NCBI GenBank assembly: GCA_002633005.1
Contig: NMRA01000530.1
Location: 200,072-264,071, forward strand
Length of the DNA: 64,000 nucleotides
Direction: 5' to 3'
From: Phoronis australis
Taxonomy: Eukaryota; Animalia; Phoronida
A program made the translations under genes and the position numbers. This document shows, one piece after another, positions 26,033-61,800 of the stretch. How positions within the stretch are numbered: position 1 is the stretch's first letter; every line of letters begins with the position of its first letter. The notes below the pieces were generated by a model. It saw nothing but the letters and a program-made list of their open reading frames with translations, searched no databases and was not told the DNA's origin.

Positions 26033-29000
26033 CTAAAATATAGACATACTTCGATTGTTTAAATTCCCCTGAGATAAGTTTATTTTTGGCTGTGTTCTAT
26101 CGTCTGCCATGTCTACACTTGACTGAACTTTATGCCATATCATCTGCGACTCATGAAAGCTCTCATAAGCTAACCTTTCTTTCTTCAAATGCTTGTACAT
26201 TTCACTCTTTTTAGATAAACAAATCGCAATTTCAGGATGATTGGAGTCATTTCTGTAGACCCTTGACCATTCCCTCAACGATTTGTCGTAGTGCTCTGCG
26301 GCTTCTTCGAATTTTCCCATGTCTTCGAGCTCGTTTGCAATCTGATACAAACATTCTGCGATACTAGCGTGATTTTGATTGTGATGAATCTTCCTCAGTG
26401 TTTCTAAACATTGCTGAAATTTCTTTTCAGCTTCTTGGTGTTTGTCCATTTTGCTGCAAACACGTCCTATGCCATGTAAGCACGATACAATGTGAGGATT
26501 ACCCAATTTTCCGTAAATTTTCTTCATAAAACGTAACGATTTTTGGTAGTAGCTCTCGGCCAATGGGTATTCTCCCAGCTCATAGCAAACATTGCCAGCG
26601 TTATGCAAACAGAAGGCTACTTCAGGATGAGGTACATCACCGTTAATACGTTTCATCATGTCCAACGAATCTTGGTAGTATTTTAAAGCCACGTTTTTCT
26701 CGCCTTTTTCACTATACACGTTCCCAATGTTGTTCAACCTGGATGCAATTTCGGGATGATCAATGTCACCGTAAATTCTTTTCACCATTTCCATCGAGTC
26801 TTTGTAGTATCGTAAGGAGGAGTCGACCTGACTCATTCGACTGTGCACACTAGCAATGTTGGACAAACTCGATGCAATGTCGGGATGATCTATATTTCCA
26901 AGAATCCTCTTCCTCATTTCCCAAGACTTTTCAAAGTATTCCAAAGCTGACGTGTACTTACCCATGTCATAATACACACCCCCAATGTTGTTTAAACACG
27001 ATGCAATTTCACTGTGGTCTTCTACACCATAAGTGGTGTGCATTACTTGCAACGATTCTGTCAGGTGTTGCAATGCTGACGCATGCTGACCCATCGTGTT
27101 ATACACATTTCCAATGTTATTCAAACAAGGTGCTGTCTTAGCTTGATGTCCATCACCGGGAAGTCTTTTCCACATACTGAGCGCATCTTTGTAGTGTTTT
27201 AAGGCTAGCTCGTACTCATTCATCTTCATGTACATACTTCCAATGTTGCTAAGACTGGATGCAATGTCGGTGTGATCGATATCTCCAAGAATCCTCTTCC
27301 TCATTGTCCACGATTCCACGAAGTATTGCGTGGCTGAAACGTAATCACCCATCTCGCTGTACACACTTCCAATGTTATTCAAACACGACGCTATTTCATG
27401 GTGATCTGCGCCATAGCTCATTTTCATTAAATCAACCGCTTGCTTGAGTTGTTGTAAGGCTATGACGTGCTTACCCATCTTGCTGTACACATTTCCAATG
27501 TTATTCAAACAAGATGCTATGTGAGCTTGATTTCCATCACTGGGGAGCCTCCGCCACATATTCAGCGCATCTTGGTGATATCGTAAAGCTGATTCGAAGT
27601 CATTTAACTCACTGTATACATTACCAATGTTACAGGAACACGAAGCGATATCACGGTGGTCAGAACCATGAGCAATCCTCTTTCTCATGGCTATGGACTG
27701 GTTATAATATTCCAATGCTTGTTTGTATCTTTTCATCTCTTGGTATGCATTACCGACGTTATTAAAACCTGACGCAATGTCAGGATGATCACTTTCGCCG
27801 TGAATTCTTTTCAGCATGTTCAAAGAGTCATGGCAGTACCGCAAAGCTGACTCGTATTCACCCATGCCAATGTATGAACTACCAATGTTATTCAAAAATG
27901 ATGCAATTTTAGGGTGATCTTCACTATAAACCCGTTGCATTAAATGCAACGATTCTTCGTGGTGCTGTAAGGCTAACGCATTCCTGCCCAGGCTGTTATA
28001 CGCAGTGCCAATGTTACTCAAACAAGCTGCGATGTCAGCTTCATTCTCATCAGCAGGATGGTTGTGCCACATATCTAGGGCCTCTTGGTAGTATTGCAAA
28101 GCTGACTCATACTCATTCATCTCATTGAACCCATTACCGAGATTACTGAGGCATGATGCAATTTCAGAATAATTTGTTTCTCCTTCAGCACTCTTCATTA
28201 AACGCAATGATTCTTGGCAGTGTTCTATGGCTAAATCAAATCGTTGCATTTTGAAGTATGTACTCCCAATATTATTCAAGAGAGGTGCAAACTCTAGACT
28301 ATCTGTATCGCCGTGAATTCTTTTCTTCATACTCAATGAGTCTTGAAAGTATTTTAAAGCCAGATCGTATTGACCTTTGTCACTGTACACGGTTCCAATG
28401 TTGCTCAAACACGATGCAATTTCCGGGTGTTCTTCCCCATAACTCTTTTGCATTAAGCGCAACGATTCGTTGAAATGCTGTAAGGCTAGCGCATGTTTAC
28501 CCGTCTTTCTATACACATTGCCAATGTTATTCATACAGGGTGCTGCTTCTGTTTGATTTCCATCACTGGAAAGTCTTTGCCACATACTGAGCGCGTCTTG
28601 GTAGTGTCGCAGTGCTGACTGATAGTCAACTAATTCACTGTACACATTACCAATGTTACTTAAACACGACGCGATGTCACGATGGTCAGCGTCTCCAGCC
28701 ATCCTCTTTCTCATATCTAAAGACACTTTATGTTGCTCCAGCGCTTGTTTGTATTTTCTCATCAATTGATATACATTACCAATGTTATTAAATGCCGACG
28801 CAATATCAGGATGATCATTTTCACCGTGAATCCTTTTCATCATGGTCAATGAGTCTTGATAGTACTGCATGGCCGATTCGTATTTACCCATATCACTGTA
28901 CGCACTACCAATGTTGTTTAAACACGACGCAATTTCAGGGTGATCATCAGTGCCATAAGCTTTTTTCATCAAATTCAACGATTCTACGAGGTGCTGTAGG

Positions 29001-31239
29001 GCTAATGCTTGCTTACCCATCTTTTGATATACAGTGCCGATGTTGTTTAAACACGATGCCATGGTGCCTTGACTGGAACTTCCATGAAGTCGTTTTATCA
29101 TAGAAAGCGAGTCTGTGTGATACACCAAGGCGGTTTCGTAGTCGCACATATTACTGTACGCGTTCCCAATGTTATTCAAACATGAAGCAACGGTGTCGCG
29201 ATCCGCACCACCACAAATTCGTTTTTGCATGCTCAAAGACTCTTCGTAGTGTTTCAACGCTAAAGCAGGGGAGCACATTTTACTATGCACATTTCCAATG
29301 TTATTCAAACATGACGCTACGTCGTTGTCATCTCCATTTCCTATGATACGTCGTCTCATATCTAAGGAGTGTTGGCAGTATTCCAGGGCAACTTTGTAGT
29401 TACCAACATTTAAGTGTGCACAGCCGATCTTGTTCAAGCACGACGCAATTTCTGGGTGGTCACTTTCTTTATAAATCGTTTTCATTAAGCTCAAGGACCT
29501 TTCGTAGTATGTTAAGGCCATGTCATGCTTGCCAACTTTGCTGTACATATCAGCAAAGCTGCACAGAAGTGACGCAACGGTACGTTGTCTAATACCATGT
29601 ATACCTGAAGGTTCGATGACTATCGAGGTTTGTGCTGACGTATCACAACTTTCAGCTATACTGTCAATCAAATGCGTTGATTCACCCAGCCATTCCAATG
29701 CTTTTTTCTGCACGACGTCATCTATGGGGGCATCTAGTAAGCTCAAGTAATTAAGGAGCTTTTCAATATCATGAAAGCTTTTCTCTGTTGTAGATTGTGG
29801 CGAAATGAAAAGTTTGCCAGCCCTCAAAAGGTCTTCGTCAAAAAACTGCTGTTTGTTCGTGTCAAACGCAAAATCAGGACCTTGTGTACACAGAAAGACC
29901 AAGAGTGGAAAAACCGTGCAATGGTATCTCATGATCAGAAGATTGTAGTTGCTGTTCTCAGGCTCATCGCCAGTCAAGATTTGGTTCAACGTAAGCAGTG
30001 CAACTTGCTGGTTATCATTGTGACCAACCACCCTCAACAGTGTGTTTATTGAAAACGCCACTTGCAGATTATGCTTTGCTTTTTCTGACAACATTTCCTT
30101 AGATTCCATTTCATCAAGCGCGTCCCAAATGTTGTCGTTTTCCAGGCAAAATAGGGATTTTAATGCGGCAAAGAGCCCATCAGGGCAATTTTTTATTACC
30201 TTCGTCGGTTCCTTGTCTTCTTCCTCCAGGTGTCCACGCACCATCAACCTGTATGTTTCAAGTAATACGTCTCCACCTTCACTACCATCTATTTGTAGAA
30301 CATGAGTTAACCCATGACCACTTGGCAATGATAACCTATCACCGAATACACCTGCCATGTAACTGGGAGTCCCGACTAATGTGCAGCTTTCTCGTTTTGT
30401 TGTGCGAGAGTTGGGAGGAGTACTATCTAGTGAAAACCCGCTACCAACAGCGTCATCCACAAACCAATTTCCACCAGGTACATCAAGGTCATTTAGTGAC
30501 GTGATATTCAAAGTACTGACGTCTGTTTCTCCCATGTTCAGGCCAATCATGTGGACAAGTTTCAGCGTGTTTTTGAAGTAGTCAATATCTTTGCAGTCAT
30601 CGTCTAAAAGAATTCCCAACTTAATTTCGGAATATGTTGTAGCATCGCCTCTTGCCAAAGACCCAAAGGCAAGTGTAGCATAGTCGCAATTCGCTGGGCC
30701 TAATATTTCTCTAGTCTGGGAGCAGAAATTCTTACACAAAGTCTTCACTTCAGAGTTCAAATTTTCAAGGAGTTTTCTAGTTTCTTCGACAAACATTTTT
30801 TCAAACTCAATTCGTTCATCCGTTGGTGCATCAAGTGTGAATTTGGCTTCAAAGTCGTCTAGTATCTGTTTGGCCTTAGAGGTTATGTCACGCCTACATG
30901 TTTCAAGCCTTTCTTTATTGTTAGGCTTGAAGTCAATGGGCAGCGTATCTTGATCTTTTGATATGGCTCGGCAGAATGTGGCTTCATTTTCTCTCAACAA
31001 CATTTCAAGATCCCGTTCGAGACTTGAATCTTTTACCCTAACTAAAGCAGCGTTATATAACGCAGAAGCGGTTACAAAGTGTTGCGTGGACTTAGTCAGC
31101 AAACCTCGTTCTTTGTGAACACTTCCTATTTTCTGAAGTATTTCACCAACAGACACCGAACTCCCCTCAGTTGATGAGAGTTCTTTAAGTGATGCTGCGA
31201 GTTTTTTTTCCATGGCATCCAGCCGTGCGAGTCGTTTTT
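26033..31239 (-). CDS. Giant terminal exon: degenerate GlnD/DUF294-like nucleotidyltransferase, helical domain and ~27 TPR repeats (42-43 aa, kinesin-light-chain/NPHP3 type)
   Basis: Open frame of 5.2 kb with motif AFGSLARGDATTYSEIKLGIL and repeats of IASCLNNIGxVY...ALxYYxxSLxM.KRI.G..DHP. Phase-1 acceptor gtatttcAG ends at 31240. An alternative internal start gccATGg lies at 31213. Confidence 0.93.
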
Positions 31240-33810
31240 CTGAAATACAGCAACGTTCGGGATATATCAAGTGATGAAAGATAGTTTAGATTTGAGACGC
31301 CATGTTTTTATCGAAAGGTAGTAGAGGTATCCCATCAAATTTTCAGAACATGAAAACGAGTATAAATCACGAAACCAAGTTTTCTTCGGACCTAGAAAAG
31401 CTGAAAAATTTTGATATTTCTTAAAAACGTAAAAAAGAAGACCAATGGATACGTCATGATGGACCCAGCTCATGATTTTTTATTGTCTGTACGTGATCAC
31501 GGTACCAGTTATCACGACTACATGTAATTTTGATCCGAATTCAAAATGAATCTGAGGGGTTATGGGCACGTAATTTGTTCAAATCTCTGAAATAATACAT
31601 GTCGATTGGACCGGGCCCGCCAACATGTAGGTACCTGTCTTTATATATTGGCGCACTGCTGTTGCATTGCATTTTTGTTCTTCCGAAAGTACCTCCAATG
31701 TTATGTGTTTTCTTTTTGATAAAATCGGTAGGCTGGATCTTGATTCCACAGAAAACCTGATTTGAATTCCCTGCCACAGGCTGCTATCGGCGAGTTACCC
31801 GGTCGAGGTTTAAATGTTTCCAAATGATGCCGATTAAGGATCAGAATTTGAAATGCCAGGCCTGAAACGTCGCGGAGGTATGTCCCGAGGAAGGCGGGCT
31901 CATCATTGACTGTCGACAGTGCTTTTTTCTCCTGCAATCATCACTGCTCCACCTGTACATTATTTAGTAGTATCATAACGTATGATGTCATAATTTAAGA
32001 ATGCCATAAAACAGTATGTGTATATCGTATCCTGAGAGTTTGAGAGTAAATTACCACAAACAGCGATTCTAGAGCACCATTAGTGATTGCACCCTTCATG
32101 ATATATGTACATGTACTCAAAACGTATATGGTTTTAGCAAACGCAGCTCCAAAAACGTGCACGGAAACAATCTATTCAGCAGATGCTGTATACTGCGTGT
32201 AAGGGGAATGTGTCAATTTTGATCGCTGTATACACACTGTGGTCCGAAAAGTATCATATTTAGTACGTAACCTATGTCCATATTTTTCGAAAGGTGTACA
32301 CAATAGGCCAGCTAGTATCTTTTGACATCATCGTGAAGCAACTTAGACAGCCCACTAAACAGCAATAGATAATTAAAATTTATCCCGATAGGAGCTAAAA
32401 GCGGTCCACCTTTTTTAATCATAACTCCCACTCCCTCTGGGAATTGCCCACTTCCATTTCAAATCCTATAATCTCGACTGTTTCAGTTTTCTGACATATT
32501 TCGGACAATATGCTGGTCGTTCTGCTCTGCAAAATATTTGTGTAATTAAACGGCAAAAAATCTTGCTTGTGAAAGACAGTGAGTTGATTTTGCCTTGGAA
32601 ATTCTTAGACACTCCTCACGAAGTCTCGATATTGTTGGGAGATCTGACTGAAAGAGGGCCTACGGCTGTGACCATTATTTGAATTAGCTACATTTCCGGT
32701 CTCCAGATATGTGACAACCAAACGTTCACTTGTTTCGGGCACACCATATTTGTGGAAAACTATACCTCAACGATTTAATCTGCTGCTGTTTACCATACTG
32801 TCCAGGACGATTCATGAATATGTCAAAAACTTTGGTTGCATTTTCCCACTCCCTGAATTCGCTCCCATTCTCCCTTTTAATCTTATATTCTAAAGGGGGG
32901 GGGGGACGATTCTTAATAGAAAATCTGGCAAAACGTGAAAATTGCTTTTTGGTGTATTTTTCTCACCTTGCTTTAACTCATTTGTTTGTCTTTTTTGCAT
33001 GGGTAATAAATTGGATATACTGACCAATTAACAAAATCTGATAAATCATGAGTCTCTGGAGGTTCAGATTCTGTAGTTCCTTGAGAAATTTGACTTTTAA
33101 CTTCTCCTGTCAAATAACTGACAATGCGGGCACTTGTCTCGGGCCACCTCTCAAAGAAAGGATCCCGTCTGAGAGTTTGCCCTTGACACGGCAGGCATGC
33201 TTCGTAAATACTGTACTCCAAATATGAAAGGCTATACCAATCAATATGGAAAGGAATGACGGTTGATACTGTAACCGGGTCAACTAACGTCCATCATACG
33301 ACTTCATAAAAACAAAATCAGAATGGAAATTGACCCCATCTTTGGGTCTTTCCGTGAGTAGCTCCTTCAGAAAAAGAGTGCCTTCAGTTACCTCAGCAAC
33401 AGCTGGGATTCACATCAAATTCTATACATTGAACTGAAAAAGAGAAAGCATCTCTTATGGGAGAGGATTTAAAAATATGTGCAATACCAGTTTTCGGCAT
33501 TTTTCGAAGTATATGCTATTAATTGCTCAAGCAACGACCCATGCTGCATTATTTTATATTTGTGGTCTACAAAAAATTCCCGGCTAGGGTCCCCAAAGCG
33601 TAAATTGACAGTGTTATCTACATTTTTAGATACTTCCTTGTGTTTTCTTTCTCCGAATGTTTCTGTTCTACGGCTTGTCGCTACACAGGTTCCATTCTCA
33701 CGTTTGCGCTTAGTCTACGCCCACCCTCTTTCCATGCCTCCCCCAACGCCACCGAATCTCCCCCGCGTCCCCCTCTTTCTACGCATATGCACTTGCCATC
33801 TATACTGTAC

Positions 33811-33960
33811 CTGTTGCTTCAGACAGTTCTACGTCAGGCAGCTTAGTTCCCTTTAGTAGTTTACAACTTGCCATTCTTAGAGTGTCATGCGATGCAGAGA
33901 GAGCTGTGAGTGCACGCTCGAGGTCGGCTTCTGCATCGTCTAATTTCTTTAAAAGGTCGC
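33811..33960 (-). CDS. Internal exon (coiled coil) of the TPR gene
   Basis: ttttgtcttttAG acceptor, AG|GTACAG donor, 150 nt, phase 1-1. Reads DLLKKLDDAEADLERALTALSAS... Confidence 0.65.
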
Positions 33961-35322
33961 CTAAAAGACAAAATCGTGATTTATGTAGCTATTACTATCA
34001 ATGGACCCAAACGTGTGTTTTCAGTAACACGTTGTAAAATATAGCAGTTTAAACCCTCCCCAATACATGTCAATTGTCCCTTATTCATTATGATATTCAT
34101 CTTTGAATTTGTACTCAAACAATACCGTAAAAGCAGAGGGGGTTATTAGTAAGCACTCGATCATTCCAAACATAAAAGTTCTATTCTAAGGCTGAAACAG
34201 GAAATTTGTCACAATTTGGCTACATTTGGAACAAAAAAGATCAGAAGTGGCTGTTGAAATGCGTACGAACGTTCAGATATTATACTTTGGGCAAAGCTCT
34301 CTATACATTATTTTGTTTAAAATATCACTTTTGCTTAAAGTGCTATCAAAATTTATACTTTGAAGAATATTCAGAGAATAAAATAACAGTGATATTTAAC
34401 AAGATGAATAAATACTAGAGAACTGTTGTGGAAATTCTGACTTCAACATTTGTCGAATTTTCCTGATACCAATTTTGCAAAGAAAATACTAGTAGTTTTT
34501 GCTGAACTTTACTGAAAATGTTGTCACGAGACCAATCAATGGTGGTTGGGTACGGAGTCGAAAATTAAATTCTACGCATTTTCTACTTCCAGGATTGTTT
34601 ATATTTCTACTGATCAAGTTAAGCAATTAAGTACATATCTGTAAATATGCAAAGACATGCTGAGAAGGTTACCATCAGCGTTAACTTGAATTTTCGTGTT
34701 TGAGGAGTTCCTAGCTTGATGTAGCTGTAATCAAATCCGCCCAAAGATTAGACACTCATTTGCGTAATCCATGATGAACGTGAGCTCAAAATCAAAACAA
34801 ACATTTTCAGTGTATACATACAAAATGTGTATGCCGATTAATTTGACGTTTTATTTCGAGTTCGGACATTTAATTTCATGCCTGAGGTTCCGTTTCATGA
34901 ACAATATTTTTGTTTCGCGTAAGCTTTTCCACAACTGCTTCCCATGACCAACGGATTGTCGTTGTGCAAAGCCCATCAATGAGTTCTCACCTAGCATTTT
35001 CTTAGTTTCTGAGGTTACAGTTAGATGATATGAAATACATGTAAATAGCTTAAAACTAAATATACACTTCTGATGCCAAACAGTGGCAATTTTTTTAATT
35101 TTGAAAAAATTAGTTATGTCCAAGTTTCTCCCAAAATGATGTATTGGGTGGAAGACGTTTGGTCACTTGACAGTTAATTGCAGTGGAGTACACAGCAGAT
35201 CAGAAGACGAGGACGATTTTAAGCGAGAACTGGACAATTAATTTGCAGACTTAGCAGAAAGTGGATGCTGCATCATTCCACACTCTCGTGCGGCGCACAA
35301 ACCGTTGCCATTTCTGTGCAAC

Positions 35323-37944
35323 CAGTGGCGGATCTACGGAGGGGGTTCGGGGGGGTTTAACCCCCCCTAGGCCAGGACCCAAAAATTAAAAAAAAACGTC
35401 TCCAGCAAAACAAAAACGGTAAACCCAAAGTAAACCAACTTGGAAAAAAATGAGGGGGGGGGTTCACTCTGAAAATATACTTTTTTGCATTGTGAATTGC
35501 TGTTATGAAAATCAAAGCATTTCGAGTCTTCGTGGCTCATCGGCAAAACCCCTGAGATCAGTTGTGCGGGCGCTTCTGTCGACACTTCTGTAGTAGCCAA
35601 GCATTTTAGACGGATGCACCTCTGAAAGGGCAGCTCTATAGCTGATTTCTTCAGGTAACTAGAAGTTTCTTTACTCTAAGATATGTTTTGATTTGATTAG
35701 GGGAAATACTGTGGTGCCGCAACCCTGATATTCAGGCGACTTGACGTGCCACGTTTTTACCTAATCTGTCATGCCGTGTCATCCTATTACATCCCACACG
35801 TTTGTAACTCGAATTTGACTGGTGTATATTAAAGATGTCCTGCGCAATATCATACAGTGTAAATGTGCATGTAATACTTTTGAAAAAAAAATGTTTTCCA
35901 AAGAATTGCTATTGTGGCAAGCGTCGTGGTCTGGTCGCAAGTCTGAAGATGCACTCTAACAGGTTATGTCTATTCAAGGAATAACCAAGGGGGCACTCAC
36001 ATTGACAAAGCAACCGCATTCGCGAACAGTGTACAGTGCCAGAAGTTGCGAGGAGGCTGTATTTTCACAACAAAGTCTTGCGGGACTCGTGCGATGTTCA
36101 ATAGGCCTAGGCTTCCTAAAGAGCCCTAGTGCCGACCTCAACACCTACCGTCTTTCTACCTGCAATAAGCACCACTGCCGTTTTCTATACTGGGAATTTC
36201 CGCAGAAAGGCCAACCCGACAAAACGCCCATGCCCATGGGCATTTATTTGATGTTAGTACTTCGGGTTTCAAGCGTTCAGACATTGGGACGCTTATTTCG
36301 AAAATTGCAAGAGATGCAAATGGGTCCTGGGATACATCGTCAAGGTTTGAAGTAGTCCATGATGAACGGATCAAATTTAGTTGCGCATGCTGTAAGTCTT
36401 TTGAATGGACTTGGTAACCTCAGGGGGCTTAGTACCAACTGAGCTGCGAAACGAGATGCTGACTTTGTAGGGGCGTACAAGCTCATTGACACAGCAGTTG
36501 ACGAAGTGCAAGTGTTGGGAACAAACGTCGAAGATGTCTGGGTAGAATGGTTCCAAGAGGAGCAAACCATTGGATCCGATATACAGATTCCTCGGCAGTC
36601 TAGACAACAGAAAGATAGGACCAACGTTCCCGGAGAAACACCCAGATAATAAGTCATAATTCTACACAGTTTGTAACAATGTCGGTTTTTTATGCATGTG
36701 TACAATGAAAACGAAAAGAAATGGTTTTGGACATGCCAAATTTACCACGTACAGCAGAGGGTCTACGAGCGCACAGAAACTGATTCTGATTTGTATTTCC
36801 ACTTGAGTTTATCTGCTTCATATCCAAAATCTAGTTCACGTAGTGCGTAGTTAAATCTGTACTCAATACTTCTTTCTTCCAGTGAGTACTACAGAACGGT
36901 GCGAAAACCCTTCCTAGACAAGCTCTCGCAGCAGTTGACCACCATATGTGTAAACTACACGTATGAGCAACCACTGGGGATTAAAAAGTGTCTAGAGAGA
37001 AGTTTTCAATTCACAATTTTTTGCAAAGTACGCTTTAGGTCTCGCGACGGACCAGGCCAGCTTGATTTGTGTAGATATCGAGTTTCAGTGTACTTCTGGT
37101 CCCTCGACGAACTTGTCTCGTGATGTTTTTTTTAACAAAGTGTGCTTTGTAAAACTATTTATCTCAGCCAGTAGTGTTTGGTCCCGCGACACATCGACTA
37201 TTTTTATAGGGATAATAAGCACAGGTGTACTTTTAGTCTCGTGACGGACCAGGCCAGAATTTTTGTGTACTCTCAGTGTACATCTGGTCCCTCTGCGAAC
37301 TGGTCCTGTTATCTTTTCACCACGGTGTACAAAATGTTTTGGTTTCGTGAAAATGTTTTCCGATTATTTGTTTCCTGATATATTTGACGTTTTTCAATTG
37401 TTTGCAACGTGATTCAGCTTAATGAAGTGATACTTATTTGTTTATTGTCGCTTTCAATAATAGACTATGAGCTGAGAGCACCATCGTTCACCAGTTTTTT
37501 TCGTAACGAGACAGAACACATATTTATTTCCGGACTAACAGTACAGGTCTTTGTTCGTAAACAGCTTGAGCCTGTTGCGGTCATCTGATATTCAAGTTTT
37601 TACGCCTCGTCGGTGCTCCTTATGCTCTTGAATAATTGGTAGTTGCCTAAGCCCCTGTATACACATCACACTTTTTCGTATGCTAAAAAGGTGTGTGTAA
37701 GCAAATGTTCCAACAAAAATTTTTGCTGGTGGTGTGACTCATACACAGATGTGCACAAACTTATGAGCCAAGTTCATGTGACGAAATCGAGAAGGGCTTT
37801 CAATTATCTTATGACATGTTAAGTGCCAGAAACGTACCAGGATGCATGGAAATTTCACTGTTTGGCTACAAAAACAAAAAGTTTACCCCCCTCCCGTGCA
37901 AGACANTATCCTAACCCCCTCTTACTGAAAACGTAGATCCGCCA
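35323..37944 (+). mobile_element. Internally deleted hAT transposon with TIRs and decayed transposase
   Basis: TIRs cagtggcggatctacg and cgtagatccgcca. Flanks tgtgcaac and taggcaac match at 6 of 8 positions (probable TSD). Relic peptides SSIADFF and LRGLS...KRDADFVGAYKLI...IPRQSRQQKDRTNVPGETP are THAP12-like hAT. Subterminal direct repeats at ~37039-37120 and ~37236-37310. Confidence 0.85.
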
Positions 37945-39249
37945 TAGGCAACTTTCACGTATTTAGAAAATTTGAACACAGAGACGTTCTCAATCAAGTT
38001 GTTGTTACTACAGCCTCCACAAACGCACCTTTTCATGTATGAAAAAGGCGACTCTGTGCAGACTTTCCTCACAACTCCTCAGTATTGCACTGGTGAAAAC
38101 AACAATGGTGAAGGCGGTCTTCCAACCATTACGTACATGTACAACCTCGATAACAGAAAAATATTTTTCTGTAATTTTTGGCTTTTTTCTTAGCAACAGG
38201 TATACTAAAGGCAAGTAGATCTCTTAAGAGGTATTACTAAAATTGTTTGTGAGACACAGGGTCATGGTGGGAACTCTTTAAGTCTAATTGCTAAATAATG
38301 AATTGTATAAAGTATATATACAATTACACCATACTGTATACGCACCCCTAAGTGTGGAAACCAGATGTCGCCTAATCCGATTGCCAAAACTATGTCTGAC
38401 CTTCATTAAAGGTAAAACTTCTCGTCTCAGATTATTTACATCAACTAGACTTAGTACACAATCCCAGCAACATTTTATAACGGCGATTTATTGAAACGCA
38501 TCGGCGTCGGTGACCCCCATGCTTGTTATTTTACAGAACACACGACCCGCATCAAAATAAAAATTATTAACGTAGAAACTAGAATTCCAAAATTTGAGGT
38601 ACTCAAAACCCAGAAAAACGTTTACTCACTCCGACGTGACATAATTAATAAAATGCGAATTTTGATCTAAGCCGTTTAAACATTAAAATGGCATCGAGCA
38701 ACGGAAATGATCCGTTTTCAAAATGATTTAAATTATTGATATATTTGTAGGTGAATTTTCAGGTAACTCATGTTCATTTCACACTTTAACAGAGGTGCCT
38801 CTTGTTGTGATGTTATAATTTTCTATGACGTCATCCTTTTGTGACGTCATTCTTAAATCCTGTCAATATATTTTACAGTTCTTTTATACGTTTCTGCTTC
38901 ATTCTATTAGAAAAACATAGCACCTCTAACGGAAAAAAATAATTCCGTGAGCCTGTATTTTTGTGGATTTGTAGTTGGCAAGTACTAATATACAAAATAT
39001 TACTTTAAAAGCAGCGACAAATTTAAAACTGTCCAACCCCCAATAAGCTTGAAGTATTCTGTTCTTGTAATGAACCAAAAGTCGCAAAATAATGATTATA
39101 CCAGACGTTACCTATCGAACTGGTGATAACAACGTTAAGATACATTTGAACACATGCAGTGAACTGTGTAGCTAAGAATTGTCAGCCAGTTTGCAAAAGT
39201 CAAATGAGCGCATTCAATTATTCGAGTCAAACAAAAAGAGTATTCTTAC

Positions 39250-39363
39250 TGTCTTTCTTCTCTGATGCATTAAACTTTTTCCTAATTTCGTCGTTATTCT
39301 TTCGTAAGTCCTCATATTCCTTTTGTAGCTCGTCAACCTGTTTCTCAAAATCGTCGGATTGAT
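39250..39363 (-). CDS. Internal exon (coiled coil) of the TPR gene
   Basis: catttcAG acceptor, GTAAGA donor, 114 nt, phase 1-1. Reads QSDDFEKQVDELQKEYEDLRKNNDEIRKKF. Confidence 0.75.
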
Positions 39364-40682
39364 CTGAAATGAGTGTCACGTAATTTTGTAACAAAATCTT
39401 CATTATAGCATACCGGAAAGCAACGGAATCACAACATAAAGCAGGGCTATGGTGAATTCATCTGTCCGTCATCCGGTGAATTTAGAGATACACATCAAGT
39501 GATTGCAAATAAATTGTTCAGCTTTAGTGTATCTGATTTTGAAGATTTGTAAACAGTGGTAAGAGTGTCATTGCACCGCATTTAAGCGAATTTAAGGGCG
39601 AAGTAGAGGGTTGCCCCAGCCAATGCCCCTACTGGTACGGTCAAAGAAGAAAAACAAAGCAACAGGCATTCCGTTTTGGGCGTGCTAGAGGATATTTTTC
39701 CATTTCGACTGGGCCTCTTTTTGACATTTTAATTATTGGTGCACCGTGTTCCAGAGCTTTATAACTGTTTTGCATTTGTCTGCATTATTTCGTTTAATTT
39801 TAAACTCATCCTTTCCAATTGAAACATAAAGATTCGCCCCAGTAAATAAATGGAGTCTTGGTTGTTTTAGTACCAACTTTGTACTTCGAGTTTACTCTAT
39901 AACATCAAAACAACCTTCCCACAGACACTACATTAGACAGCAAAACAATGTTAGCGACCTTACATTTGGCATATTTCATTCTTGGTGACCAATACTTAAC
40001 AATAGCACTACTGGTTGCTCGACTCGTTTGTATTGTGAGACGTATTATCAGCGCCCGCGGTTTCGAGGCCCAAATGTAAAAGTATACCAAACCTTGTTTT
40101 GATGATTTCAACCAATTCTCGTTCTGTCACCTGCAACTACATCATTAGCGCTAATCTTCCAAGTTAAAGACAGGAATCAACTAAAAACTCATACTCTCGA
40201 CCCTATCTCAAAATTAGACGCGATGGTCCTTGGTTTGGGGTCCTTTCCCACAGTTGCCGTGTGGTTAAAAAAATTTAGGTCACGCTTGCCCCTTAAGCAG
40301 ACATTGAAAGGAGTTTTCAAATTTTGCTCCAAATTTTGAGGGTGTTACGGTTACAGAGCATTATTTTGTTGCAGAGAATTGTATGGGAAATTCAATTTTA
40401 GTATTTCTTAATGGGACAAACCGAGCTTGGTATTGACCATAGAGTATGTGAAATTCACGTAGCACTAAAGAGACTTTATTTGAGAATACTTACAGAGGTT
40501 GGCGGAGTCAAGTTGTAATGTAATGATTTTCATAATAGAGTTTTATTAAGGATATGAAACAATGAAGGAAAAAGGTCATTTTGCAAAACGCTGAAAATGC
40601 CTTTGTATTAATATAAGCACATCCAATATTCCCATGTATTCCTAAGGGAGAATGACTAAAAAGGATGTCATTTCAAAAGACT

Positions 40683-40888
40683 AAAAATAGTTAATATAGC
40701 AAAAATAACAGGACGAGCGTCAGTAATAAATTGTATTAAAATATTCCCGATGTTTCGAGCGATGCGCTCTTTGATGGGATTATTTTAATATATTTTAGTA
40801 CCGACGCTCGTCATTTTATATTTACTATTTTTACTTGTTTATATTCTTATCCCTGGATAACTGCACGGCATTCAAGCACCTTTTTGGT
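40683..40888 (-). mobile_element. 206-bp hairpin insertion with 15-bp TSD carrying a degenerate hammerhead-ribozyme motif (Penelope pLTR/retrozyme-like)
   Basis: tcatttcaaaagact is duplicated at 40668-40682 and 40889-40903. Inverted arms gacgagcgtcagta/taccgacgctcgtc and tattaaaata/tattttaata. The minus-strand core reads cccatcaaa-gagc-gcatc-gctc-gaaacatcggg. Confidence 0.7.
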
Positions 40889-41342
40889 TCATTTCAAAAG
40901 ACTTTTATTCGAAAGTGGTTCTAAAATATTTCGAGGGAGATATTTATCTAAACCAAACTACAGTATGATGAAATAAAAATATTTCATCGTCAAGACGAGA
41001 ACTTTTTGGCATTCTCTGTAACATGCCACCTATTAATTTATGCAATATTTTGTTAAGCTGAGGTAAAATTGCAGATTTCATCAACATATGGGAATATTGG
41101 ATATGAAGAAATTCATACAAAAACATTTTAATTTCTTTAAAATTACGTTTCTTTTATTATTTCATATCCTTAGTAAAATCCCGTTGTCATATTCCATGAA
41201 TTGTAACATGACTCGGCCAACATTTTTCGGTTTTGCATGTTTTCGTATATAATGCCTCTTAATTATCTTGAAAACTTGAAGCAATGCGGAAAAGTTGCTC
41301 CAGATTACGAAATATACAAATATACCAAACCTGAAATCTCAC

Positions 41343-41663
41343 CCTTCTCCATATCTTCGACGGTAAAGCTCAACTCTAAGGGAGACCCACTTGTCATCTG
41401 TTTTATCTTGTCGGTTAGCAGAGCGTTTTTTATTCCTTCAGTCAAAAGTCCTCCGCATAGCTTTTGCTTAAACTGCTCCATAGCTTCTTCACTGTCGGAT
41501 GCTATCACGAGTTCAATGCACCCCTTTTTGATACATACTACTTTGACTTTACCACCAGACACGCTTAGTAAATATTGTTTTAAGGTCGAGTCATCTGTTC
41601 GTTGTTCTTCAATGATTTTCCATTCCACGAAGTCGCCAAGCTCACTTTCAATCTTCAATTTTG
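41343..41663 (-). CDS. Internal exon of the TPR gene, TRADD-N-like domain
   Basis: tttgttctAG acceptor, G|GTGAGA donor, 321 nt, phase 1-1. VKVVCIKKGCIELVIASDSEEAMEQFKQKLCGGLLTEGIKNALL resembles the GS/CIxLxV..S.EAL..L....SG.L signature of TRADD-N-like domains. The domain call is from recall. Confidence 0.7.
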
Positions 41664-42639
41664 CTAGAACAAACATGGATACAAAAGAGATTGAATACCA
41701 TAGTTAACAACAATTGCTGCATTTGACAGACGTCACCGGTTCTGCAGGGTAAACCGGCTACTAAGACATCAGAAGAGCGTTAGGTAGATCTTGCTTCGTG
41801 AGAGAAAAGTAAGACTTCACAAGACCTTGCAAAATAAGAACAAAAACGAGTTTTTCTCAAGCATTCTTAGGAGTCTAATATCATATTAATGTATCCTACC
41901 AGAATGGCGGCCACTGAACTGAATGATCGGTGAAGTTAGATCGTTTATCTGTGTGGTTGGATTCACTGGGTTAAATAGTAAAGGTTTTTCAAGCTGGTGT
42001 CTTGCGGTCTACGGAGCTCAGCTGAGCATCAATCGGTTGTCAATGACGACTTCCGGTGTATGGATCAATCAGGTGCCATGAATAAAACCCTCTGTTGACA
42101 TCCTAACCGGTTGAGGTTGGGCAATTTGACCTATTCGTATACGTTCAACCCTGCCGGTATTGATTGAAGACACCATGCTGTTGCAGTTAACTATATCGCC
42201 TCAGGCTGCTGATGTGGGCGTTATCTAAATAATCAGACCCACCATAAACACATAATTTTTAGTTTTAAAAGTTTTTCAATAACATGGTTGAATAGCTCGT
42301 CAAAAGTACAAGTGAGTAGGCTTTTGAATTTTGAGAATCAAACAAAAATGTGACATTTACTATCTATAATGTTCGTGTAATAGAGTTGTAATTTTATGTT
42401 CATTATTAAATCTGCAGGGTGTGCAACTCAATTAGGCCAATTTTCAAACCCTCAGGCCCTTGTTTAAGTTTAACATGAGCCAAGTGTAATCGTACAATTC
42501 TTGCCATGACTTACCTGGTTGAGCCAGCGGAACCGGTCAAGACAAAGATAATTAACATAGTGTAAAAGGATATCATTGAGAACGTACAGTAGATACACTG
42601 TAGATGCGAAAAATACAATTTTTGGGACTTAGTATAAAA

Positions 42640-43060
42640 TAATTTCCCGATATTGTGGATCCGCCTGGCTCCTTCTTCTGAGGATTAATGATTGAATGGT
42701 TCCCGCTAAACCTTTGTGGCCTTCTGACTGTCTTCAAGGACGTGAGTGAGGCGACTTAAATCTGACCCCGCACCGTCTTTTCAAAGGGGGATGTTTGCTT
42801 TAACCCATGTAGCCTCTTTGACACCTCGATCAAACCAAGAACTTTCTATGACCAGTACCCCCATACCCGCTGTCTCGAACGCACGTGTGCCCGTGTCACT
42901 AAGGTGATCAAAAACAGCAGAGGTTAAACCAGTCACTCATCAAAGCCCAGTGTAAGGAGCGAGGCGGCTCTTCATCGTCGGAAAATTTATTTTAAAGCAA
43001 GCTCCACAAGTTGTCGTTGATTGTTTTCCGCATCTAGTTATTCACTTGGATGAACGACCT
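42640..43060 (-). mobile_element. Penelope-like element 3' remnant (GIY-YIG C-terminus and degenerate hammerhead)
   Basis: SAVFDHLSDTG...VLVIESSWFDRGVKEATWV matches the Penelope endonuclease tail. Downstream cagaagaaggagccaggcggatccacaatatcggg resembles a decayed CTGANGA...GAAA core. Confidence 0.7.
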
Positions 43061-43446
43061 TTTAGAAATGTGGTAACGCATACAGTAGAAATTTTGTGCC
43101 AAGAATATTTTTCTGTAAGCTGTAACGAGGTTTTTGAGATTTCATCTTGAGACATTTATAGAAAACGAAATTTGGTCATGTCATTGAAACCTTGTTTTGC
43201 TATTAATTAAATTCTTTTATTTTTGCTTAAATTTAGTGCACAGTATCCTGAAACTCAATTATTGGTATATACATGTAGGTATGAAGCAAAAATCAAATTT
43301 TATAGGATTTCTTCATTCAGCAAATATGTACTTTTACTTTGTGAACTCAATCTTTTTAGACTCAATTCACAGACCTTCAACGATAAGATCTTACACAGAC
43401 GTAAAAATAAACATAGAATTCTAAATCAATAACCCAAACAACTCAC

Positions 43447-43512
43447 CGATGTGATTATATTCATTTTCTTCTATTTCTAGAAGTCGCTGGCGCTTGAGAT
43501 TGAGCAGATGTA
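43447..43512 (-). CDS. Small internal exon of the TPR gene
   Basis: ttatttccAG acceptor, G|GTGAGT donor, 66 nt, phase 1-1. Reads HLLNLKRQRLLEIEENEYNHI. Confidence 0.7.
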
Positions 43513-44210
43513 CTGGAAATAAGATTTCTAAGTCTAGTGAAGGCAGCCGTCTACATGTGTGTCAGGGGTAGACTGACAATGGGTTTATTTGTTAAAACTG
43601 CACTTCCTGAGTGTTTAACTGCCAAAAAACACGAAACTTAAACGGGGGCTCTTAAGGTAATAAACTTAGTATCATAATGATCGTTACTGGACAATCACGT
43701 TGAAATTACCAGCTACCCAAGACAATGATATAGAGTTTATTGGCCTTAGCCAATGCCAGCATTTCGAATTTGAAATTGGCTCTTACACGCATTGCCAGAG
43801 ATATGTGTTGCCGAATCAGTCGGAAACCATTTAACATAGAATAAGCATGACAATGTTTTTCTCTAAAATTGAGACTTTATAAACAGTGGCGAAATGTTGT
43901 TTTAGGAATTATTTGTCTGCGCTAGTTGTTTAGTGTCAGGAAAAGATAGAGTCAACCTAAACGGATTTCAGCCACAATTCTTGAGAAAAATCCCGTAAGT
44001 TCTACATGTAGCATAGATAGTGAATGATATATTTTAGCTATCTGACTTCCCTCACTTTTCTCCTGTCGAAGTAATTTGTCGCTTTAGTTCTTCTCCCTTA
44101 AAACCCGGCACTGTCGATAGTTTTCAACAAATGTTTGGATTTCACAGCACATGTGCAACCAACCACTATACTGCATACATTTAGAAATTCTGTGTACGAA
44201 AACAACTTAC

Positions 44211-44279
44211 ATCTTTTCCTTTGGAGATCCAGAACTCGGCTTGTTACAGATCTACAATTCTTAGTTTGGCGATAAATCT
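44211..44279 (-). CDS. Small internal exon of the TPR gene
   Basis: tattacAG acceptor, GTAAGT donor, 69 nt, phase 1-1. Reads IYRQTKNCRSVTSRVLDLQRKR. Confidence 0.65.
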
Positions 44280-45399
44280 CTGTAATAGGATATTTACATG
44301 TATTTTTTAAATTTTATATTTGTTACATATTTTCTATAAGTACACTGTACATGGTGACTCAATCAAAAAATACCCACGTTTTGTCTTATTACATAATCAT
44401 TCCTAAAGAAATCCTTAGCTGTCTTATCAAATGAAAACTACTACGATTGGATGACATTTCCTCCAAATTACAAAAGATGTTGATTCGCTACCGTGTAATT
44501 GCGTGACAACAATTGCTCAAGTATATAACAATTATTCATTACCGGTTGGTCATTCGTAACCTCGACCCAGTAAGTGCCAATAACGTCATGTTTTCGTGTG
44601 GCTGCTCAAACTGTGGCGTTTTAGGAGTGCAACAGTCTCTATAACACATAATTAGAAGGTAATCTGACCCCAAAGACATAATTATTTTAGTATCCATGAC
44701 ATTTGCAACAAAATGGGGGCACTTGAACAATATTTTAACAAGGCATCAAACGGTCATGAATCAGCGATATTTTGTGAATAGACAGAAATGTCATCATCCA
44801 CTAATGAAACTCTCATTGTTTAAACTTAATAGCGATTTATAAAGGAAAAATTTGCAGAACCCAAACCGTGAGTAATTCTGGGCGTCCGTGTGAGTAATCT
44901 ATTTTTTGTTTTCTGCAATTATAATGTAACTTGTTAACATTCAACCAATTTTCCTGGTTGTTTCAACTAAATCAAGAATATACAATGATTGTGGCTCTAA
45001 ACGATACAAAATCCAATTCTAAACCGTGAACAGTCGTAGTCAAGGCCAATTTTCTTGTTCCATACATGAAACGCAAATAGACACAAGCGGTGTTTGTACA
45101 TCCTTCCACAACATGTTGGTAATTAGTTTATAGCCCCAAACATGTAACCCACTATGTTAACATGTAGTAATTGACTTATTGCAAGCTCCGCCCCCTTGCG
45201 TAGTGTCTACTAACAAACATTATGTTTTACCCGGCAAAGTGTTGCTTGGTGGGTAAAATGGCGGCTTGGAAACGAAGGTGTGTCAAGAATGATGAGTTCT
45301 AAAGGTCAGTTAAGTAAGCCGTCACTCAAAATCCTGGCGACAGGTCAATTGTGTCAGACGACCATCATTCTATGGAGATGGCTCATTGTTCTTTGATAT

Positions 45400-45620
45400 G
45401 AAGGTTCTTTTTAGGCAAGCACAACACAGCTTTGTCTGCAAGTGCTGCTGGATGTACTCAGAGTATTTCTATCAAAGAATCACGGTTGATTCAGGACACG
45501 AGGCCCAATACCCTTTTCATCACCAATATTACATCAACACACAGTTTGCTGTGGAACCATTCATTGTTTGTATAGTAACTGACGATGCTTGACTGAAGTT
45601 AAGCGAAACGTCTGTGTATA
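45400..45620 (+). mobile_element. Penelope-like remnant ending in a minimal type I hammerhead ribozyme motif
   Basis: IKESRLIQDTRP is GIY-YIG tail-like. It is followed by ctgacga-t-gcttgac-tgaa-gttaagc-gaaa-cgtc at 45579-45612. Confidence 0.65.
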
Positions 45621-45744
45621 TATGTATATATGCGAAAGTAAACGTAATGTTAAAACTTTTTGCTGTTTCATTTTCATTAGTTTATATAAATAAATAAATA
45701 AATAAAAAAATTTAAATGACATATTTGAGTAAATGTTAGTTCAC

Positions 45745-45963
45745 CTTCGCTCAGGTTGATATGGTCATTGCTGTCTGCCGTTGGTTCTTCTGTTCTGCGA
45801 TATAGTTGTTTGACCTCGGTTAACTCAGGCTCAATTACAGAGGACTCAGCTATAGAAGCATCATCGCTGCACTGCACTGGTTTGTCTTTCTCATAGACGT
45901 TAGACAGGTGTGTCGTAAGTGAGTTATTTTCGCTTGTTCTGTCTTCAGGTGGCGAGTTGTTGT
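45745..45963 (-). CDS. Internal low-complexity exon of the TPR gene
   Basis: ttccctttcAG acceptor, AG|GTGAAC donor, 219 nt, phase 1-1. Acidic and Ser/Thr-rich. Confidence 0.7.
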
Positions 45964-46152
45964 CTGAAAGGGAAATAATGCTGATTATATCTCCAAAATC
46001 AAATCTCAATAGACAGCGATGCTTTAATTTAAGAAAAAGTATTACAAAAGACGTAAATAGATGCAAATGAAAGTACTATTAAAGTTTTGTTAGACGTACA
46101 CGTGACATGACACGAGGATCTAAATTTACAACGCCCTCAAACAGATGTTCAC

Positions 46153-47010
46153 CTGTTCCAGTACCTAGGAAGCTAATAGCACACTGCTTAGAATGTACGA
46201 GGGTCTGTTCATCTTCGTCACCAGTTGCCGTTGACGACAGCGGGTCTCCAAACCGGCTTGAAAACGCATAGTCTCCACTGCTTGACTTGATAACTTTCCG
46301 ATTCCTTTCATCTTCTTTTGACGTTTGATCTTTTCTTGAAGACAGTTCTTCAGACTCCTTGTCTAGAGAAGCTCCGCCATCAGTGTTTGATTCGAGAACT
46401 TTGGTTTTTGTCTTGTCCTCTTCCGATGTTCTACCATGCCTCTCCTCATCTCGGTAGACCCTTGATTTTGTTTTTAGGGTTTCAGACCGACGTGTTTTCC
46501 GGAATGGAGAATCTTGGTTTCCAGTGCCTAACTCGGAAACATCGCGATTTGTTTGATCTTCGTCAGATAAGCTAGTGCCTTCCCCCAATTTATCTCTTCT
46601 TGGCGACAGTTCTTCAGACTCCCTGTCTAGAGAAGCTCCGTCATCAGTGTTTGATTCGAGAACTTCGGTTTTTGTCTTGTCCTCTTCCGATATTCTACCA
46701 TGCGTCTCCTCATCTTGGTAGACACTTGCTTTTGTTTTTAGGCTTTCAGACGGACGTGTTTTCCGGAATGGAGAATCTCGGTTTCCAGTGCCTAACTCGG
46801 AAACATTGCGATTTGTTTGATCTTCGTCAGATGAACTACGACTTTCCGCCATTTTATCTCTTCTTGACGGCAGTTCTCCGGCCGAGATTTCTGTGCTATA
46901 CGAAGATTTCCCAATCCTAGGTTTTGTTTTAAATTCTTCCGCTATTGCATCTACGTCCGCTCTTGTTCTCATTATATTAATTCGATACACAATTCGTTCA
47001 GTGCAAAGAT
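46153..47010 (-). CDS. Internal charged low-complexity exon with a 264-bp (88-aa) tandem duplication; most 5' exon identified
   Basis: taatttcAG acceptor ends at 47011. Phase-1 donors at 46165 or 46153. The frame is open throughout and DEDQTNR.VSELGTGN.DSPFRKTR...ESEELS occurs twice. Confidence 0.75.
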
Positions 47011-56699: not shown

Positions 56700-58050
56700 T
56701 ATTCGTATTACATTGTAAAATTCTCTAGAATTTTTGTTTTTAGTCGATCTAAACTGACGTGGGCAATTCTATAGTACGCTTTCTTACTTGTAAAATTCAG
56801 TTAAGGATTTAATACGAGCACAAAGCCAATAAAGATGGAATTAATCTTCAGATTCCTGTTTTAAAAAAGTGCATGTATCCCACTCCTTGACTAAAAGTTT
56901 ATGTGAAATTGAATTACATCTTCTGATTCTATTTGATAATCTAAATTGAAACCATTTAAGTTTTATATCAGAAGTAAAACAAAAAGATGAATTATAGAGT
57001 TTTTCCAAACACTCCTGCATTGGCGAAATGTTTTTGCCATTTAAATTCAGATTTTGTTGTTTATAGTAACCGTTACTTTTGTGAGTATAAGTTTTTTATT
57101 TGAATACTCACTAATTAATTCTGTTGAAGAATTGGGAAAATACTTTAAAGTAACAAACACAGAATTTAGGCCAAAGCAAACAAAATATCTTCATATAGAA
57201 TGAAAAAATCCAAACTAAGAGTATATAAAACATTAGTCCAACGATTTGAAAGAGTCATCAAGTATCAAAATCCTATCATCGGCATATTGCGCGAATTTGC
57301 ACATACGCTTTCCTGCTGTGCTATCCAATTTTAATTTCACTTTTTTGTAAAAATAACATGCCTAAAATTTCCCCACAAAGGGCATATAAACAGGGAGATA
57401 TTGGGTCACCTTGACGACGACCTCTTAAAATATCAAAGTTTTCCGAGGTGAACCCATGTTGTAGTACGCAGAGCATAGAACCATTATTCACAAGGCTAAC
57501 CCAATGTACAAACTCTTTAGGAAAATTTAAAAAGTATTGCGTTATATAAAAAATCCAAAACATACTGTCAGACGCTTTTTTAAAATCGGCAGACTAACAG
57601 TCCTGTAATGTTTTTTCGTAAATTCCCTTACATCATATACTAGTGGCGTATTTTCTCCAATAAAAACATTTTAAAATTCCGTTTTAGTTTTCATAAAAAG
57701 TTTAATAATTATATTATTATTCAACTGCTTAAATTTTTAAACTTAAATTGAGCAAAGATAGAGCCCTCCAATTTTTAAATACTCTCTTTGTATGCCTGGC
57801 TTAAGGATAATACCTATATCTCCTTGGTGTAACGACTACAGCAATGACTGAATCGTATTGCTAAATTAAGTGCTCGAACGAGAAAATCACTTCAAAAGAA
57901 CTTGTAGATTTCGCCTGTAAATCAGTCTAGGCCAGGAAACTTGTTGTTTTTTCATTTCTTAACAGCATTTTGAGCTTCATTGACTGTAATTTTTCCAAAT
58001 TTTCATAGTTTGATAGCCTGTCTTTGTTTTTGTAGAGCGACTGAATTTTC
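56700..58050 (-). mobile_element. Decayed L1/Tx1-type reverse transcriptase
   Basis: RGRRQGDPISPCLYALCGEIL and QYADD motifs, with many stops. Confidence 0.8.
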
Positions 58051-61229: not shown

Positions 61230-61800
61230 AATTTAAAGACCACTTACGAAGGGGGGAATGATGGTATCGGTTGTTTCTTTTCTCTTGTTTTATATTTTTT
61301 TTGTTCTTTTTAATTTCCTCCAGTTCAGATGAGCAAGGACAAAGATTTGGAATTCCCTTGCCTAACTTTACTATTCTTTTGTATAATTTATCTAAAATAA
61401 AATAAACATCCAAGCGGTGTCTTAATAAATAAAAAAACATGTAACAAGGAGTATCTAGTATAGTTTGTAATAAACAATTTCTGGAGAAGACAATCCTTTT
61501 TGTTAACATGTCCAATTCTAAAATTATTTGAATAAATGCATTTCTCGGAACAGTGATAGAAATGTAATCCTTTTTGCAATTTGTTAAATTTGGAAGTTTA
61601 CCTCTTGGGCGTTGTTTATATAAGTGAAATTTGCAAAGGCATGAAATTAAGTTTTGCACTGGGTAGTTTCAACATCTGTTGCCGGATAGAACTGTTATTA
61701 CTAGCCACAGAGATATTGTCTCTATTTCTAAACCAGTTTTACATTGCAATCAAAAAGTCTGAACAACATCAGGCTGACAATATGAATGAAGCGAAGTCCC
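61230..61800 (-). mobile_element. L1/Tx1 ORF2 C-terminal remnant
   Basis: NLISCLCKFHLYKQR...PNL resembles the terminal NL.I...K..IYK.R block of Tx1/L1 ORF2. Confidence 0.55.

What the first reader, a model, noticed from the sequence alone, without database searches (positions are those of the whole stretch)
26033..47010. Modular gene of at least ~2330 aa built only from phase-1 exons: TRADD-N-like + coiled coil + pseudo-nucleotidyltransferase + ~27 TPRs
Seen: seven upstream exons (858, 219, 69, 66, 321, 114 and 150 nt) are all multiples of 3, all phase 1-1 with canonical splice sites, and the 5.2-kb TPR exon also opens with a phase-1 acceptor. Established: symmetric phase-1 exons are the signature of exon shuffling and allow in-frame skipping. 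Inference: an NLR-analogous sensor (adaptor domain, NTase-like core, TPR sensor array) with combinatorial isoforms. The true first exon was not identified.
Basis: partly seen in the sequence, partly recalled or inferred. Interest (0 to 1): 0.7.

Follow-up and report, generated by a model that had tools for sequence, protein, structure and literature searches.

The report
Dead AMPylase-fold TPR sensor with TRADD-N
This animal gene has a long repeat arm and an enzyme-shaped core that lacks the active-site residues its relatives keep, and is likely spliced to an upstream immune adaptor domain, so it is predicted to be a non-catalytic sensor or scaffold; the same domain layout is already catalogued in lancelets.

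Summary
Seven 3n exons with AG/GT sites join a 5,207-nt exon into a 2,333-aa frame with about 27 TPRs. The core folds like GlnE and DrrA (Z about 20) and belongs to a large DUF294+TPR family of lancelets, acorn worms, an annelid, Hydra and intracellular bacteria. This copy looks catalytically dead: the second catalytic acid is Lys (0 of 159 homologs), and two further family motifs are lost. The long exon stays open and its repeats show dN/dS 0.2-0.4. The 321-nt exon is TRADD-N-like. The layout is not new: Kaur 2021 supplementary data list lancelet CARD+FN3+TRADD-N+NTase+HEPN+TPR proteins, and four homologs here carry a TRADD-N-like domain. No junction was confirmed: four RNA runs gave no reads on the exons, only short pieces of paralogs. 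The 69-nt exon is doubtful, the first exon may hold the start codon, and nothing supports combinatorial skipping. Verdict: a probably pseudoenzyme variant of a catalogued but unstudied immune-type architecture.

The parts
46153..47010 (-). Exon 1 (858 nt): acidic low-complexity region with a 264-nt internal duplication; in-frame ATG at 46972 may be the start
   Evidence: no Pfam hit; the two copies differ at 20 nonsynonymous and 3 synonymous sites, so no sign of amino-acid constraint
45745..45963 (-). Exon 2 (219 nt): acidic linker
   Evidence: no Pfam hit
44211..44279 (-). Candidate exon 3 (69 nt), doubtful
   Evidence: worst codon score, weakest acceptor
43447..43512 (-). Candidate exon 4 (66 nt): short helical peptide
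   Evidence: good donor; codon score within the null range
41343..41663 (-). Exon 5 (321 nt): TRADD-N-like domain with a Gly-Cys turn
   Evidence: Atlas features 0.94 and 0.92 to TRADD-like_N clusters; profile of four homolog segments E=5e-6, best of 1,244 window peptides; Pfam negative
39250..39363 (-). Exon 6 (114 nt): coiled-coil-like
   Evidence: codon score 0.145, above the null 95th percentile of 0.099
33811..33960 (-). Exon 7 (150 nt): coiled-coil-like, then linker
   Evidence: codon score 0.10
33391..33433 (-). Rival acceptor and short stop-containing exon inside the last intron
   Evidence: pyrimidine share equal to that of the 31239 acceptor
29880..31239 (-). Exon 8, 5' part: TPR-like cap, helical stalk, GlnE/DrrA-type nucleotidyltransferase fold and HEPN-like helical bundle
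   Evidence: model pLDDT 88.1; Z 20.3 to 3k7d_B and 20.1 to 6yx5_B; DUF294 E=0.0015, below the cut-off
30620..30664 (-). Degenerate G-X11-[DE]-X-[DE] motif: Gly kept, first acid Glu, second position Lys
26033..29590 (-). Exon 8, 3' part: about 27 TPR units of 42-44 aa with a four-unit higher-order repeat; stop at 26035-26033
   Evidence: dN/dS 0.43, 0.30 and 0.20 between internal blocks

Best explanation
The gene encodes a DUF294-family protein with a predicted GlnE/DrrA-type fold that lacks the family's active-site residues, followed by about 27 TPRs, and it is likely spliced to an upstream TRADD-N-like exon and coiled coil, so it probably works as a non-catalytic immune sensor or adaptor. 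Proposed steps: (1) the TPR superhelix binds a foreign or host protein (inferred); (2) the dead enzyme fold and its helical bundle act as a scaffold or switch, perhaps holding the substrate or an active paralog without modifying it (fold predicted, residue loss shown, role inferred); (3) the coiled coil oligomerises and TRADD-N recruits a TRAF-type MATH-domain partner through its Gly-Cys turn (inferred from the TRADD-TRAF2 precedent in PMC8195603). The upstream modules were probably added by shuffling of 1-1 phase exons onto an intronless core.
For: Fold: Z 20.3 (rmsd 3.3, 279 aligned) to the GlnE adenylylation domain and 20.1 (4.1, 290) to DrrA; best unrelated row 11.9; Foldseek E 1.9e-5 and 3.2e-5. 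Family: 895 representatives at E<=1e-3. Loss of catalysis: D-x-[DE] in 152 of 159 homologs; Lys at the second position in 0 of 159; K-x-P-x-G in 140 of 159, deleted here; K..[YFL]R in 136 of 153, lost here. Both Asp residues are needed in DrrA (PMC8097203, passages). The scaffold is kept: 64 of 101 well-conserved columns match. Constraint: 1,735 open codons; dN/dS 0.2-0.4 between repeat blocks; 15 of 24 differences to paralog reads lie at third codon positions. TRADD-N. Precedent for the fusion: two lancelet entries CARD+FN3+TRADDN-DEDD2+NTase+HEPN+TPRs, and P0062, P0044, P0039 and P0055 carry a TRADD-N-like segment before the core.
Against: No RNA read supports any exon or junction. Depth was 0, or at most 0.22 from stray partial reads, in the bins holding exons 1 and 3-8, and 0 in the bin holding nearly all of exon 2, in 4 of 4 runs. 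The long exon drew only partial paralog matches. 86 of 151 scored homologs start within 80 aa of the core, so exon 8 read from ATG 31213 is already a family-typical protein. TRADD-N has no Pfam hit, two word searches found no homolog, and its single-sequence model is uninformative (pLDDT 44.6). Three of the four profile seeds were chosen for resembling exon 5. No upstream death-fold exon was found (71 peptides and 4; CARD profile). No ligand, partner or immune role was tested.
Confidence: 0.5

Rival explanations
1. Two units or alternative ends: the upstream exons form a short TRADD-N plus coiled-coil adaptor ending at 33433, and the core-TPR exon is translated from ATG 31213 behind a non-coding exon.
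For: The 33433 acceptor scores as well as 31239 and gives a stop after 13 codons. Most homologs begin at about this point. No junction reads.
Against: Phase 1 donor at 33811 and phase 1 acceptor at 31239 fit with no stop. The same domain order exists in single lancelet protein models. The first AATAAA after 33433 lies at 31484; ATTAAA occurs at 32881, 32779 and 32419.
Confidence: 0.18
2. A decaying or silent paralog: the active site eroded after duplication and the gene is turning into a pseudogene or is absent from many individuals.
For: Long branch (1.76) and at most about 31% identity to any homolog. No reads while a paralog is transcribed. Transposon copies in the introns. Exon 1 duplication unconstrained.
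Against: 5.2 kb without stop or frameshift, canonical splice sites, structural motifs kept while catalytic ones are gone, dN/dS 0.2-0.4 in the repeats (though this averages over past history).
Confidence: 0.12
3. An atypical active enzyme or nucleotide-binding switch: Glu at the first acid fits the degenerate motif, and the Lys might replace one metal.
For: Gly-Ser, Thr-x-Tyr-Ser and the GET motif are kept. The published motif allows Glu.
Against: Charge reversal at the second acid is seen in 0 of 159 homologs, and two more Lys/Arg motifs are lost.
Confidence: 0.1
4. One reading: a receptor diversified by combinatorial skipping of symmetric exons.
For: All seven upstream exons are 3n and 1-1, so skipping would keep the frame.
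Against: No transcript data. The skippable exons are mostly linkers, while the sensor array sits in one exon. [quoted passage not shown]
Confidence: 0.1

Closest known systems
[quoted passage not shown]
   Same: TRADD-N before a nucleotidyltransferase, helical bundle and TPR array. Homolog P0062 has this domain order and matches the core at E=4.7e-27.
   Different: P0062 keeps all three active-site motifs and has CARD and FN3. The window gene has lost the motifs, has an acidic N-terminus with no death fold found, and has about 27 TPRs. The main text passages read do not discuss these proteins.
Neochlamydia NEX2 family, F-box(+OTU)+DUF294+TPR (PMC4209131, passages); also loci in Holosporaceae and Rickettsiaceae genomes
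   Same: DUF294 domain followed by TPRs with a variable N-terminal module. P0070 shows F-box+DUF294+TPR.
   Different: Predicted bacterial host-directed proteins; the window gene is a spliced animal gene with a dead core. Direction of any transfer was not tested.
GlnE adenylyltransferase (3k7d, 1v4a) and DrrA/SidM N-terminal domain (6yx5, 3nku)
   Same: Predicted fold of nucleotidyltransferase plus helical bundle, Z 18-20; G-X11 spacing.
   Different: 10-14% identity; catalytic D-x-D not kept; no GEF or lipid-binding domain detected; substrate unknown.
Other degenerate family members: P0057 (Ptychodera), P0102 (Branchiostoma, cluster of 7 records from several species), P0111, P0151; P0069 (Saccoglossus) borderline
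   Same: Fail all three motif tests yet keep core and TPRs.
   Different: A tree holding the window protein with the three acorn-worm proteins is rejected (p-AU 0.014), which favours separate losses; no TRADD-N profile match in them.
NLR / STAND-TPR receptors
   Same: Adaptor, core, repeat order.
   Different: The core is not a P-loop ATPase; no NACHT or NB-ARC evidence.

Membership tests
DUF294 (GlnE/DrrA-like NTase)+helical+TPR family | Sequence homology over cap, NTase and helical bundle | tested here: met
   E to 8.7e-39; 895 representatives; Atlas first hit 0.95, DUF294 in 71% of members
DUF294 (GlnE/DrrA-like NTase)+helical+TPR family | Pfam DUF294 at the curated cut-off | tested here: not met
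   18.8 bits against 21, E=0.0015, as expected for a degenerate copy
DUF294 (GlnE/DrrA-like NTase)+helical+TPR family | C-terminal 42-44-aa TPR array | tested here: met
Active GlnE/DrrA-type AMPylase | Pol-beta fold with helical bundle | tested here: met
   predicted model, Z 20.3 and 20.1
Active GlnE/DrrA-type AMPylase | G-X11-[DE]-X-[DE] metal-binding motif | tested here: not met
   second acid is Lys, 0 of 159 homologs
Active GlnE/DrrA-type AMPylase | NMP transfer to a protein | not testable with these tools
   no assay; none found in print for the animal family
TRADD-N (DEDD2/TRADD-like clade) | Tiny residue plus Ser or Cys in the beta2-beta3 turn | tested here: met
   Gly-Cys aligned with the GC/GS of four homolog segments; definition in PMC8195603 section 8
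TRADD-N (DEDD2/TRADD-like clade) | Profile match to TRADD-N models | tested here: inconclusive
   Pfam PF20694 not hit; Atlas features 0.92-0.94; own four-sequence profile E=5e-6
TRADD-N (DEDD2/TRADD-like clade) | RRM-like fold | tested here: inconclusive
   single-sequence model pLDDT 44.6; not searched
TRADD-N (DEDD2/TRADD-like clade) | Binds a TRAF MATH domain | not tested
   no partner sequence from this species was held
NLR / STAND receptor | NACHT or NB-ARC P-loop ATPase core | tested here: not met
   the core folds as a nucleotidyltransferase; the 559-aa core had no Pfam hit at E<=0.001
HEPN RNase | R-x4-6-H motif in the helical bundle | tested here: inconclusive
   GlnD/GlnE/DUF294_C-type HEPN domains are listed as lacking it (PMC3710099 table); the window has Arg402 and His406 where homologs have Arg and Tyr, a spacing too short for the motif

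The most novel reading that the evidence does not exclude
Marine invertebrates carry an undescribed third class of animal protein AMPylases (GlnE/DrrA fold, TPR-guided, shared with intracellular bacteria), and dead copies have arisen repeatedly and been kept as decoys or regulators; this gene is one such decoy, wired to TRAF/cell-death signalling through TRADD-N.
Probability: 0.2. Interest if true: 0.75.

Novelty: new variant of a known kind. Interest (0 to 1): 0.4.

Why it matters
A 2021 review names only two classes of metazoan AMPylase, Fic and SelO (PMC8097203, abstract and passages). If the intact members of this family transfer AMP, they add a third class tied to immune domains. A retained dead copy with an adaptor domain would show the fold also serves as a sensor or scaffold, and gives a natural negative control. 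The exon-phase pattern by itself is ordinary.

Tried and rejected
No whole genome was held, so no paralog survey or ortholog dN/dS was possible. The run search listed no RNA holder of the stretch; four runs with the same species label were laid anyway. No control gene was laid, so it is not shown that those individuals carry this locus; 18-19% of each raw-read run was read. A joint to 30899 in X2 (8 reads, from a transposon end) was set aside as an artefact. PDB sequence search of the core gave only E 1.3 and 2.4. Exon 5 homolog searches were empty; its model was too poor to search. Upstream coding exon: no Pfam hit at E<=0.02 in 71 minus-strand peptides of 45 aa or more above 47000; the other 4 of 75 were scanned and gave only weak zf-RVT and GN3L hits. 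One ancient dead clade with the acorn-worm copies: rejected, p-AU 0.014; the group was picked after a FastTree run, P0102 was left out of the test, and the query is a long branch. Placement near annelid proteins is unsupported (58/90). Trees used 75 and then 32 of 156 rows. Papers without mention of this family in the terms searched: PMC13350694, PMC3482391, PMC12373286. No complex prediction was run. In PMC8195603, supplement 4 was cut when stored and file 13 was not searched, so more matching architectures may exist.
Full report
Observation. The window is eukaryotic DNA of 32-42% GC in 2-kb windows; no genome was held. On the minus strand, exons 47010-46153, 45963-45745, 44279-44211, 43512-43447, 41663-41343, 39363-39250, 33960-33811 and 31239-26033 have canonical sites and give 2,333 aa in phase 1. 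The last exon alone holds 1,735 codons with 26 motif-matched TPR units plus a degenerate one. The large exons stand out under strict splice criteria or by codon use. The 69-nt exon does not, and chance 1-1 pseudo-exons are frequent (22 against 15 on the opposite strand). Exon 1 has an in-frame ATG at 46972, so its phase may be meaningless. No upstream domain exon was found.

The core. Residues 1-560 of the last exon hit lancelet proteins annotated with DUF294 or 'PII uridylyltransferase N-terminal', a Hydra protein and a metagenome protein (10 hits). A full HMMER search gave 895 representatives at E<=1e-3, of which the best 150 were examined. Named members come from Branchiostoma, Saccoglossus, Ptychodera, Owenia and a Holosporaceae bacterium (30 of the 160 looked up). 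A pattern scan of bacterial genomes found 6 loci among 61 candidates, in Holosporaceae, Rickettsiaceae and an unclassified genome. Neochlamydia's 50-member NEX2 family has the same DUF294+TPR plan (PMC4209131, passages). A model from 86 sequences (pLDDT 88.1, pTM 0.88) matches the GlnE adenylylation domain (Z 20.3), DrrA (20.1) and the GlnE N-terminal domain (18.1); the best unrelated row is 11.9. The helical bundle corresponds to the non-catalytic HEPN-like DUF294_C group (PMC3710099, passages).

Dead active site. GlnE and DrrA use G-X11-[DE]-X-[DE], and both Asp residues are needed in DrrA (PMC8097203, passages). Here the Gly is kept (160 of 160 homologs), the first acid is Glu (Asp in 154 of 159) and the second is Lys (Glu in 155, Lys in 0 of 159). 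The K-x-P-x-G motif (140 of 159) is deleted, and K..[YFL]R (136 of 153) loses Tyr and Arg; its Lys may survive by a one-residue shift. That these Lys/Arg motifs bind triphosphate is my recollection and inference, not a call result. 64 of 101 well-conserved columns still match. Five homologs also fail all three tests, one of them (P0069) only narrowly. One (P0102) belongs to a 90%-identity cluster of 7 records from several Branchiostoma species and hybrids, so dead copies can be kept. The query's place in the tree is unresolved, and grouping it with the acorn-worm copies is rejected at p-AU 0.014.

TRADD-N and precedent. Exon 5 has no Pfam hit, but its nearest Atlas clusters carry TRADD-like_N (0.94 with 18% of members, 0.92 with 58%). 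It has the Gly-Cys turn that Kaur et al. define (PMC8195603 sections 8 and 11). [quoted passage not shown] Homolog P0062 has CARD, FN3, a TRADD-N-like segment, an intact core and TPRs. P0044, P0039 and P0055 have similar segments, P0055 with weak TRADD-like_N (E 0.058) and RHIM (E 0.03) hits. A profile of these four ranks exon 5 first among 1,244 window peptides (E 5e-6, next 0.25); three seeds were chosen for resemblance. Other homologs carry CARD, IRF, Death, Roc-COR, GT4-conflict, HEPN_DZIP3, OTU or ankyrin domains (41 distinct homologs scanned), which points to immune or conflict roles.

Expression and selection. Four runs labelled with the same species gave essentially no depth on the exons and no listed joint at a predicted junction (14 weaker joints not shown); reads fell on intronic repeats. 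At 85% likeness only short partial matches appeared on the long exon. Nine and eleven reads in X1 and X2 match 30437-30479, and their loose ends, translated by hand, continue the family's motif, so at least one paralog is transcribed. Of 24 listed differences inside the frame, 15 are third-position. Repeat blocks show dN/dS 0.43, 0.30 and 0.20; the exon 1 duplication shows no constraint. Without a control gene the absence of reads is weak evidence, but it leaves the fusion unproven.

Mechanism. Shown: open frame, loss of motifs, family membership, TPR array. Predicted: fold. Inferred: splicing to TRADD-N, ligand binding by TPRs, scaffold role of the dead core, TRAF recruitment. I put 0.5 on a non-catalytic sensor or adaptor, 0.18 on two units, 0.12 on decay, 0.1 on atypical activity and 0.1 on splice-diversified receptors. 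The 1-1 phases fit shuffling, which is established for lancelets (PMC4284660, passages), but they do not show skipping.

Novelty. The architecture is catalogued in a supplement, and earlier notes of this scan describe the intact family in an annelid and a sea squirt (unchecked AI notes). Six literature searches listed no paper on the animal family's function or on dead copies; the library lacks most subscription journals. PMC12409994 (passages) did not add one. What is new here is a dead core combined with TRADD-N and evidence of repeated inactivation. Interest 0.4.

Noticed in passing
window 9559-9969 and 1836-2345 (-): Likely two-exon secreted AID/APOBEC-like deaminase: signal-peptide-like start and HAE motif in the first frame, PCxxC in the second; weak SNAD4/NAD1/APOBEC_N hits below cut-off. 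Resembles SNADs (PMC5889660, search listing only).
   Followed up: partly
window about 35305-37948: Multi-copy element of about 2.6 kb with short inverted ends in the intron between exons 6 and 7; heavily covered by RNA reads at 90-99% likeness, with joints that skip it or parts of it.
   Followed up: partly
window 49234-51567: Tandem array of a 433-nt unit, 5.4 copies, 72% matches, CpG-poor.
   Followed up: no
window about 58655-59020 (-): CpG-rich stretch followed by a strong donor; a possible non-coding first exon of this gene. Speculative.
   Followed up: no
window 40077-40262 and 61049-61230: Two inverted copies of a dispersed repeat, about 80% alike, 20.8 kb apart.
   Followed up: no
window 7172-7888 and 7861-8079 (+): 241-nt direct repeat at 98% identity next to a THAP-like remnant.
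   Followed up: no
window 63442-63998 and 56844-57593 (-): Fragments that look like decayed LINE reverse-transcriptase sequence; only a weak zf-RVT hit, E 0.08.
   Followed up: no
P0102 and its cluster: Lancelet protein with HEPN_DZIP3 before a degenerate DUF294 core and TPRs, in a 90%-identity cluster of 7 records from several species and hybrids: a candidate conserved pseudoenzyme.
   Followed up: partly
P0011-P0015: Protein models with two or three tandem intact cores; may be read-through models of tandem arrays.
   Followed up: no
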